Below, in pieces: positions 59,043 through 59,672 of a stretch of DNA of 64,000 bases. Numbering within the stretch: position 1 is the first letter of the stretch; every line of letters starts with the position of its first letter. The notes beneath the pieces are model-generated. The model had not been told where the DNA came from. It ran no database searches and saw only the letters and a list, made by a program, of their open reading frames with translations. The translations under genes and the position numbers were made by a program. Origin of the DNA: Mobula hypostoma (lineage: Eukaryota); NCBI RefSeq assembly GCF_963921235.1, contig NC_086097.1, positions 92,692,001 to 92,756,000 on the forward strand, written 5' to 3'.

Positions 59043-59672
59043 TCACGAGGAAATCTGCAGATGCTGGAATTTCAAGCAACACACATAAAAGTTGCTGGTG
59101 AACGCAGCAGGCCAGGCAGTATCTCTAGGAAGAGGTACAGTCGATGTTTCGAGCCGAGACCCTTCGTCAGGACCAACTGAAAGAAGAGCTAGTGAGAGAT
59201 TTGAAAGTGGGAGGGGGAGGGGAGGGGGAGGGGGAAGATCTGAAATGATAGGAGAAGACAGGAGGGGGAGAAATGGAGCCAAGGGCTGGACAGTTGATTG
59301 GCAAAAGGGATATGAGAGGATCATGGGACAGGAGGCCCAGGGAGAAAGAAAAGGGGGGGGAACACCAGAGGATAGGCAAGGAGTATAGTGAGGGGACAGA
59401 GGGAGAAAAAGGAGAGAGACAGAAAAAAAGAATGTGTGTATATAAATAAATAACGGATGGGGTACGAGGGGGAGGAGGGGCATTAGCGGAAGTTTGAGAA
59501 GTCGATGTTCATGCCATCAGGTTGGAGGCTACCCAGGTGGAATATAAGGTGTTGTTCCTCCAACCTGAGTGTGGCTTCATCTGAGGCTGTGGATAGACAT
59601 ATCAGAATGGGAATGGGACGTGGAATTAAAATGTGTGGCCACTGGGAGATCCTGCTTTCTCTGGCGGACAGA
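59043..59672 (-). mobile_element. Penelope-like element 3' end (GIY-YIG C-terminus, pyrimidine-rich UTR, hammerhead, terminal repeat)
   Basis: Minus strand encodes EATLRLEEQHLIFHLGSLQPDGMNIDFSNFR*, a typical PLE GIY-YIG end, followed by the repeat shared with 16346, 26277 and 61756. Confidence 0.9.
59138..59175 (-). ncRNA. Minimal type I hammerhead ribozyme motif
   Basis: Minus strand ggtc-CTGACGA-a-gggt ctcg gctc-GAAA-c-ATC-gact. Stem I ggtc/gact, intact CUGAnGA and GAAA boxes, 4-bp stem II, NUH cleavage triplet. Activity not shown. Confidence 0.75.

What the first reader, a model, noticed from the sequence alone, without database searches (positions are those of the whole stretch)
59138..59175. 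Minimal hammerhead ribozyme in the Penelope-like terminal repeat, sense to the RPAP1 pre-mRNA
Seen: the abundant 'gatgctgcctggcctgctg' repeat carries stem I - CUGAnGA - A - GGGU(CUCG)GCCC - GAAA - CGUC - stem I'. Combining copies gives CAGUC CUGACGA A GGGUCUCGGCCC GAAA CGUC GACUG. Helix III is reduced to the palindrome ACGU. The copy at 59043-59672 places the motif downstream of a GIY-YIG C-terminus. Established: Penelope-like elements carry minimal type I hammerheads thought to cleave as dimers through a palindromic helix III. Inference: this is such a ribozyme with an extra A after A9. Copies at about 2538-2575, 16438-16470, 59138-59175 and 61815-61852 lie on the RPAP1 transcribed strand, and each departs from the composite in the core, stem II or the ACGU palindrome. 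That fits neutral CpG decay or selection against cleavage of the host intron.
Basis: partly seen in the sequence, partly recalled or inferred. Interest (0 to 1): 0.72.

Follow-up and report, generated by a model that had tools for sequence, protein, structure and literature searches.

The report
Decayed Penelope hammerhead in ray intron
A small hammerhead-type self-cutting RNA motif really sits at the tail of a dead, shortened Penelope-like jumping gene on the same strand as the RPAP1 gene of a ray; it belongs to a known class, and this copy is likely inert because the palindrome it would need to pair up is broken.

Summary
Observation confirmed. On the minus strand, 59138-59175 reads stem I / CUGACGA / extra A / 4-bp stem II / GAAA / CA-U-C / stem I'. 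It meets the published minimal-hammerhead descriptor and is the only descriptor hit in the window (1 of 200 shuffles gave any).

It lies 313 nt past the stop codon of a GIY-YIG remnant, in a 632-bp 5'-truncated Penelope-like insertion with a 9-bp target-site duplication. One relative shares the insertion; another has the empty site. The family majority restores the ACGU palindrome (74-92% of laid depth); this copy has ACAU, a common CpG decay.

The 'extra A' is a published feature of the class, not a variant. Selection against intron cleavage is unsupported. No intact dimer partner lies in the window. Cleavage was not tested.

Verdict: new member of a known kind (Cervera and De la Peña 2014), likely inert. 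The scan has noted the same family many times elsewhere in this genome and in shark genomes.

The parts
59138..59175 (-). Minimal type I hammerhead motif; core and GAAA intact, G-U wobble in stem II, helix III word ACAU instead of ACGU
   Evidence: descriptor of PMC4209133 Fig. S7
59164..59170 (-). CUGACGA catalytic box (C3-A9); extra A at 59163
59151..59162 (-). Stem-loop II, 4 bp with CUCG loop; U at 11.2 where 98% of laid family depth has C
59143..59150 (-). GAAA box, broken palindrome (C15.2/A16.2) and AUC triplet; predicted cut between 59143 and 59142
59044..59675 (-). 5'-truncated Penelope-like (Neptune-type linker in family proteins) insertion: endonuclease end, 3' pseudo-LTR, hammerhead, tail
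59483..59675 (-). Frameshifted C-terminal remnant of the GIY-YIG endonuclease (break near 59582; stop at 59485-59483)
   Evidence: tblastn with ray PLE protein P0001, E 4e-36; stop codon
59035..59043 (.). 9-bp target-site duplication, left copy
   Evidence: empty site in run X9
59676..59684 (.). 9-bp target-site duplication, right copy
   Evidence: empty site in run X9
16346..16549 (.). Inverted double copy (sense arm to 16469 with C3 changed to U; antisense arm from 16475 with A15.1 changed to G), 14-bp duplication, ends about 28 nt before the RPAP1 acceptor; predicted long hairpin
61750..61965 (-). Older sense copy, motif dead (CUGCCGA, AAAA, AGAU); nearest possible cis partner, 2.64 kb upstream in the transcript
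2439..2592 (-). Older sense copy; core boxes kept, stems decayed, fails descriptor
4274..4411 (-).
34250..34345 (+).
26277..26394 (.). Inverted tail-only copy without hammerhead, 14-bp duplication
43439..43555 (-). RPAP1 coding exon (residues 318-356), the most upstream one found in the window
42158..42256 (-). RPAP1 coding exon (residues 357-389)
33755..33874 (-). RPAP1 coding exon (residues 390 to about 423; the tblastn match overruns the exon end)
16150..16317 (-). RPAP1 coding exon (residues 424-479)
4928..5179 (-). RPAP1 coding exon (residues 479-561)

Best explanation
This is a minimal type I hammerhead motif in the 3' terminal repeat of a dead, 5'-truncated Penelope-like retrotransposon that inserted on the RPAP1 strand, likely within an intron, and it is likely an inert passenger decaying neutrally. 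In the active parent element two motifs would pair through the 4-nt ACGU palindrome with swapped stem I strands, probably helped by the element's own protein, and would cut after GUC (inferred from published relatives). This copy keeps its catalytic boxes but has a CpG transition that turns ACGU into ACAU and has no intact partner in the window, so it is predicted not to cut the host pre-mRNA. Shown: motif, element bounds, duplication, empty site in a relative, family majority, equal decay on both strands. Inferred: dimer mechanism, inactivity, neutrality.
For: Meets the published descriptor. Lies 313 nt after the GIY-YIG stop. 9-bp duplication; a contig of run X9 joins 59034 to 59676 (empty site), and run X5 has both junctions. 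Family depth has G16.2 at 74/75/80/92% and C11.2 at 98-99% in X1/X5/X9/X10, so loss of G16.2 is common in the family. Over 7 window copies, changes hit 29 of 84 CpG sites and 78 of 487 other sites (p=2e-4); sense motifs 44/190, antisense 14/67 (p=0.87). Computed double-hammerhead energy is +1.0 kcal/mol for the 59.1 homodimer, -0.1 with the 61.8 copy, and -14.1 for the majority pair; competing folds lie at -20.7, -20.1 and -33.7. Published: monomers show no cleavage and dimers little (PMC4209133); the anole PLE motif cleaves only with protein (PMC11167929); slow hammerhead cuts in introns do not block splicing (PMC2995048 passages).
Against: Unstratified, sense motifs are more changed than the 46 nt downstream (44/190 vs 33/225, p=0.031); this falls to p=0.29 without CpG sites. 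The copy has 2 listed, probably 3, changes in 38 nt against at least 1.85% elsewhere (P of 2 or more 0.16; of 3 or more 0.033; the rate is a lower bound and ignores CpG). A preprint reports fewer retrozymes in Xenopus introns than expected, without an orientation test in the parts read. No covariation could be shown in 8 window copies. Nearest-neighbour energies ignore tertiary contacts and protein help.
Confidence: 0.88

Rival explanations
1. Sense-intronic copies can cut the host pre-mRNA when they meet a partner, so selection has favoured inactivating changes or removed intact sense copies.
For: None of the 5 sense copies with motif remains is intact. Sense motif vs downstream p=0.031 before CpG correction. 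Intron depletion of Xenopus retrozymes. One of 9 Xenopus dimers cleaved strongly in vitro.
Against: Antisense copies are as decayed (p=0.87); 8 of 15 profile hits are sense and 7 antisense. This copy keeps both catalytic boxes. About a quarter of family depth carries the same change regardless of place. Intronic hammerhead cuts are tolerated by splicing. Unverified scan notes report intact sense-intronic copies in other genes of this genome.
Confidence: 0.06
2. The copy was kept or co-opted by the host as a regulatory ribozyme or RNA element in RPAP1.
For: Best-preserved motif in the window; the stem II change, and probably a stem I change, leave G-U pairs; insertion shared with organism B.
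Against: Young insertion, absent from organism C whose flanks differ by only 8 of 292 bases. Palindrome broken. In 156 nt of context the stem I and II pairs have probability 0.00. Folding is no better than shuffles (z -0.02).
Confidence: 0.02
3. The family motif has hammerhead sequence but never self-cleaves; it persists for another role in the element (protein binding, promoter or ORF start).
For: The majority monomer folds with the core paired to the cleavage strand. Catalytic mutants did not affect insertion in vitro, and no RNA-seq ends were found at the cut site, in the anole element. Covariation not shown here.
Against: All catalytic positions, the G10.1-C11.1 pair and the palindrome match the pattern kept across 56 metazoan motifs with differing stems. 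Cleavage has been shown for dimers and with protein in relatives.
Confidence: 0.15

Closest known systems
Minimal hammerheads (min-HHR) in pLTRs of metazoan Penelope-like elements (Cervera and De la Peña 2014, PMC4209133)
   Same: Type I order, CUGANGA plus one extra nucleotide, G10.1-C11.1, GAAA-NN-U-H with no helix III loop, palindromic 15.2/16.2 in the family majority, position 3' of the GIY-YIG domain in a truncated element. Acropora and Ixodes examples share CUGACGAA and C-G-U-C.
   Different: No cartilaginous fish is among the 56 motifs of Fig. S3 or in Table S1. Stem II is short (4 bp). This copy has lost the palindrome.
Hammerhead of the anole Poseidon element PAc (Frangieh et al. 2024, PMC11167929)
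   Same: Vertebrate PLE pLTR hammerhead with stems I and II only, followed by a tail.
   Different: PAc is Poseidon clade and was tested (protein-assisted cleavage); the ray family proteins carry a CX4CX2C linker typical of Neptune/Nematis and are untested.
Non-LTR retrozymes of animals (Li, Clavereau and Pollet 2026, bioRxiv 10.64898/2026.07.22.740005)
   Same: pLTR-derived type I hammerheads, reported in one chondrichthyan; a few contigs show a 130-nt head-to-tail repeat of this family's motif and tail.
   Different: This locus is a single truncated insertion with an endonuclease remnant and target-site duplication, not a tandem array.
Canonical hammerheads in Rfam
   Same: Same catalytic boxes.
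   Different: No hammerhead model matched the window at E up to 5; helix III and its loop are absent.

Membership tests
Metazoan PLE min-HHR | Stem I 3-7 bp, cuganga (+1 nt), stem II 3-7 bp, loop 3-10, gaaannuh | tested here: met
   5-bp stem I, CUGACGA+A, 4-bp stem II, 4-nt loop, GAAA CA U C, compared by hand with Fig. S7
Metazoan PLE min-HHR | [quoted passage not shown] | tested here: met
   A at 59163; listed as a class feature
Metazoan PLE min-HHR | G10.1-C11.1 pair | tested here: met
   G59162, C59151
Metazoan PLE min-HHR (family majority) | Palindromic 15.2/16.2 | tested here: met
   G16.2 in 74-92% of laid depth in 4 of 4 runs
Intact, dimer-competent min-HHR (this copy) | Palindromic 15.2/16.2 | tested here: not met
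   C/A at 59146/59145; two C-A mismatches in the homodimer. The copy is a degenerate member.
Metazoan PLE min-HHR | Located in the pLTR 3' of a PLE endonuclease | tested here: met
Metazoan PLE min-HHR | Covariation in stems across copies | tested here: inconclusive
   77.8% of 54 cells paired, not above column shuffles (155 of 500) but above slid controls; 8 decayed copies only
Metazoan PLE min-HHR | Self-cleavage as dimer or with protein | not testable with these tools
   Only contigs were available; they cannot show RNA ends
Penelope-like element, EN+ | RT followed by C-terminal GIY-YIG endonuclease | tested here: met
   Window holds the endonuclease end only; family proteins give GIY-YIG E 4.6e-4 (P0001) and RVT_1 E 1.1e-4 (P0004), both below the Pfam cut-off
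Penelope-like element, EN+ | 5' truncation, inverted 5' copies and tail | tested here: met
   Truncated at 59675; inverted copies at 16.3-16.5 and 26.3-26.4 kb; described as typical in PMC8557442
Neptune clade | CX2-5CxxC linker before GIY-YIG | tested here: met
   CKRNKC..C in P0001 and P0003; feature shared with Nematis
Neptune clade | RT phylogeny | not tested
   No reference RT set in session
Non-LTR retrozyme | Tandem units each with a complete hammerhead | tested here: not met
   Single insertion with duplication; the inverted pair at 16.4 kb has the motifs on opposite strands

The most novel reading that the evidence does not exclude
This very abundant family seeds ray introns with half-ribozymes that pair in trans with each other or with Penelope RNA, helped by the element's protein, and cut host pre-mRNAs. 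Changes like this one, which leave the catalytic half intact but break the copy's own substrate half, would then be favoured in sense introns, and relic retroelements would form a genome-wide RNA-cleavage load.
Probability: 0.05. Interest if true: 0.7.

Novelty: new member of a known kind. Interest (0 to 1): 0.15.

Why it matters
At this locus, little: it is a decayed copy of a class described in 2014. The family has modest value. It extends minimal hammerheads to batoids, which are absent from the original survey. Its abundance (147,757 contigs of one run lay on this 1-kb stretch) would give a well-powered test of whether intronic ribozymes are selected against, and a simple substrate for the open question of what Penelope hammerheads do.

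Tried and rejected
Rfam scan: 9 matches at E up to 5, none a hammerhead. Whole genome not held, so no genome-wide orientation test. Pfam on 3 of 3 window frames of the element: no match. Degenerate motif scans of metagenome and viral contigs: 0 and 0. No RNA holder listed; run X10 is only guessed to be RNA and is contigs, so its higher share of intact motifs (92% vs 74%) is not taken as expression evidence. Covariation count inconclusive. The arm identity '23/77' printed was out of register and is replaced by 66 of 74; my notebook's 65/74 is a miscount. PMC3365414 had no passage on intronic ribozymes. Rejected: chance motif; extra A as a new variant; cis dimer with the 61.8 kb copy (dead boxes); the 16.4 kb pair as a dimer (opposite strands, predicted hairpin of -147.7 kcal/mol over 253 nt); 57908-57926 as a motif (fails descriptor). 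Base 59174 is probably a third change (two window copies and P0017 suggest AGT), but its row was among 59 not shown, so it was left as in the window.

Full report
What is there. On the minus strand, 59175-59138 reads UGGUC CUGACGA A GGGU-CUCG-GCUC GAAA CA U C GACUG. My descriptor scan (CUGANGA, optional extra base, helix II of at least 3 bp, GAAA-NN-U-H, stem I of at least 3 bp) found this as the only hit on either strand, also with a relaxed core; 1 of 200 dinucleotide shuffles gave any hit. Checked by hand, it also meets the published RNAmotif descriptor (PMC4209133 Fig. S7). The loose pattern alone is not enriched (12 vs 7.7 expected), and Rfam gives no hammerhead match among 9 hits at E up to 5.

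The element. The motif lies in a 632-bp insertion, 59044-59675, bounded by a 9-bp duplication at 59035-59043 and 59676-59684. A protein search with the upstream frame returned 5 ray and skate proteins among 33 candidates. P0001 (Mobula hypostoma) and P0003 match Pfam GIY-YIG weakly and P0004 matches RVT_1 weakly, all below the curated cut-off; P0005 matched nothing and P0002 is a receptor model that includes a piece of the repeat. tblastn places the end of the endonuclease at 59483-59675, with a frameshift near 59582 (E 4e-36); C3 lies 313 nt after the stop. The family proteins have a CX4CX2C linker before the GIY-YIG, which PMC8557442 assigns to Neptune and Nematis; no tree was built.

Age and abundance. 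Laying contigs of 4 of 24 listed runs on 58850-59850 showed both element junctions in organisms A and B. One contig of organism C passes from 59034 straight to 59676, which is the empty site; its flanks differ at 8 of 292 bases. The insertion is therefore a recent retrotransposition. The family is very abundant (147,757, 102,856, 55,295 and 9,143 contigs laid); the tool warns that depth is no copy number.

This copy against its family. Within the motif, one search lists two places where the family differs (59 rows were not shown). At 59152, 98-99% of depth has C11.2; this copy has U, leaving a G-U wobble. At 59145, 74, 75, 80 and 92% of depth has G16.2; this copy has A, a CpG transition that turns ACGU into ACAU. 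A third change at 59174 is likely but unconfirmed. Against a lower-bound rate of 1.85% elsewhere in the element (11 listed places with at least 70% other letter), P is 0.16 for two changes and 0.033 for three, without allowing for the five CpGs in the motif.

Host gene. RPAP1 exons lie on the minus strand at 43555-43439, 42256-42158, 33874 to about 33770, 16317-16150 and 5179-4928 (best hit M. hypostoma, 99% on the query exon). No exon for residues before 318 is in the window, so the 59.1 and 61.8 kb copies are inferred to lie in a long upstream intron. All four listed copies are sense. The list, however, omits a fifth sense copy (4.3 kb) and two antisense copies with motif remains (16.5 and 34.3 kb). 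A profile built from 8 copies gave 15 hits, 8 sense and 7 antisense, and the 8 match by construction.

Decay test. Seven copies were compared with an 84-nt reference derived from the 59.1 copy; this favours that copy, and the older copies add subfamily differences. Sense motifs differ at 44 of 190 sites and antisense at 14 of 67 (p=0.87). CpG sites differ at 29 of 84 and others at 78 of 487 (p=2e-4). Sense motifs do exceed their downstream 46 nt (44/190 vs 33/225, p=0.031), but not once CpG sites are removed (25/140 vs 29/215, p=0.29). The window therefore supports neutral CpG decay and has little power beyond that.

How it works. In PMC4209133, minimal motifs lack helix III and form it between two copies through the palindrome; monomers did not cleave and dimers cleaved weakly. 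The anole motif cleaved only with the element's protein and was dispensable for insertion in vitro. For this family the computed double hammerhead is -14.1 kcal/mol for two majority motifs, -5.3 for copy plus majority, +1.0 for the homodimer and -0.1 with the 61.8 kb copy, whose core and GAAA are dead; competing folds are 20 kcal/mol or more lower in each case. In 156 nt of context the copy's stems have probability 0.00, and it folds no better than shuffles. The 16.4 kb sense motif is locked against its own antisense arm (66 of 74 identical). These energies omit tertiary contacts and protein. Even a slow cut might be harmless: PMC2995048 reports, citing Dye 2006 and Fong 2009 (not read), that introns cut by a hammerhead still splice while a fast HDV ribozyme blocks splicing. 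I conclude the copy is likely inert; this is inference, not measurement.

Comparison and novelty. The extra nucleotide after A9, the G10.1-C11.1 pair and the palindrome are listed class features. No cartilaginous fish is among the 56 motifs or Table S1 of the 2014 paper. Five searches listed no paper on this ray family. The 2026 preprint finds tandem hammerheads in one chondrichthyan and intron depletion in Xenopus; its supplements are closed and may name related families, and Repbase/Dfam could not be searched. Covariation in 8 window copies is inconclusive. The scan's earlier notes report the same class in this and other genomes, including intact sense-intronic copies; they are unverified and were not used as support.

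Papers seen. PMC4209133: main text parts 1-2 of 4 and the whole supplementary PDF as text. bioRxiv 10.64898/2026.07.22.740005: parts 1-3 of 5. PMC11167929: passages and part 2 of the main text. PMC8557442 and PMC2995048: passages. PMC3365414: term search only. All others: search listings.

Verdict. A correct and sharp observation of a degenerate member of a known class. Interest 0.15.

Noticed in passing
window 16346-16549: Inverted double copy (arms 66 of 74 identical) ending about 28 nt before the RPAP1 acceptor at 16318, in the likely branch-point zone; predicted to fold into a long hairpin in the pre-mRNA.
   Followed up: partly
window 16551 and 26397: Two independent inverted copies end their inverted arm at the same element position, with 2-3 bases shared with the target duplication; fits the published two internal start sites / tail of PLEs.
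   Followed up: partly
joint 59173 to 59044: 8 contigs in X1 and 6 in X5 suggest a 130-nt head-to-tail repeat of hammerhead plus tail elsewhere in the genome (letters between not known): candidate natural dimers or retrozyme-like arrays.
   Followed up: no
window 59138-59175 and 16436-16515: In the family-majority and 16.4/16.5 kb motifs the lowest-energy monomer pairs the core (UGAYG) with the cleavage strand (CGUC), a possible built-in off state.
   Followed up: partly
window 59120-59142: A pyrimidine tract and AG follow the motif on the sense strand, a possible cryptic acceptor. Two annotated Mobula proteins (P0017, P0018) include translated pieces of this repeat.
   Followed up: no
window 51136-52806 and 52982-54652: Tandem duplication with a period of 1846 bp (identical ORFs); recent duplication or assembly artefact.
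   Followed up: no
window 21622-21683: Near-perfect 62-nt palindrome (weak microRNA-model match, far below threshold).
   Followed up: no
window 2871-2932: tRNA-like sequence (26.7 bits, below threshold), likely a SINE head.
   Followed up: no
window 5996-8151 and 8300-9838: L1-like ORF1/endonuclease on the plus strand, apparently interrupted by a decayed Gypsy-like gag/RT piece on the minus strand (read translations; family names recalled).
   Followed up: no
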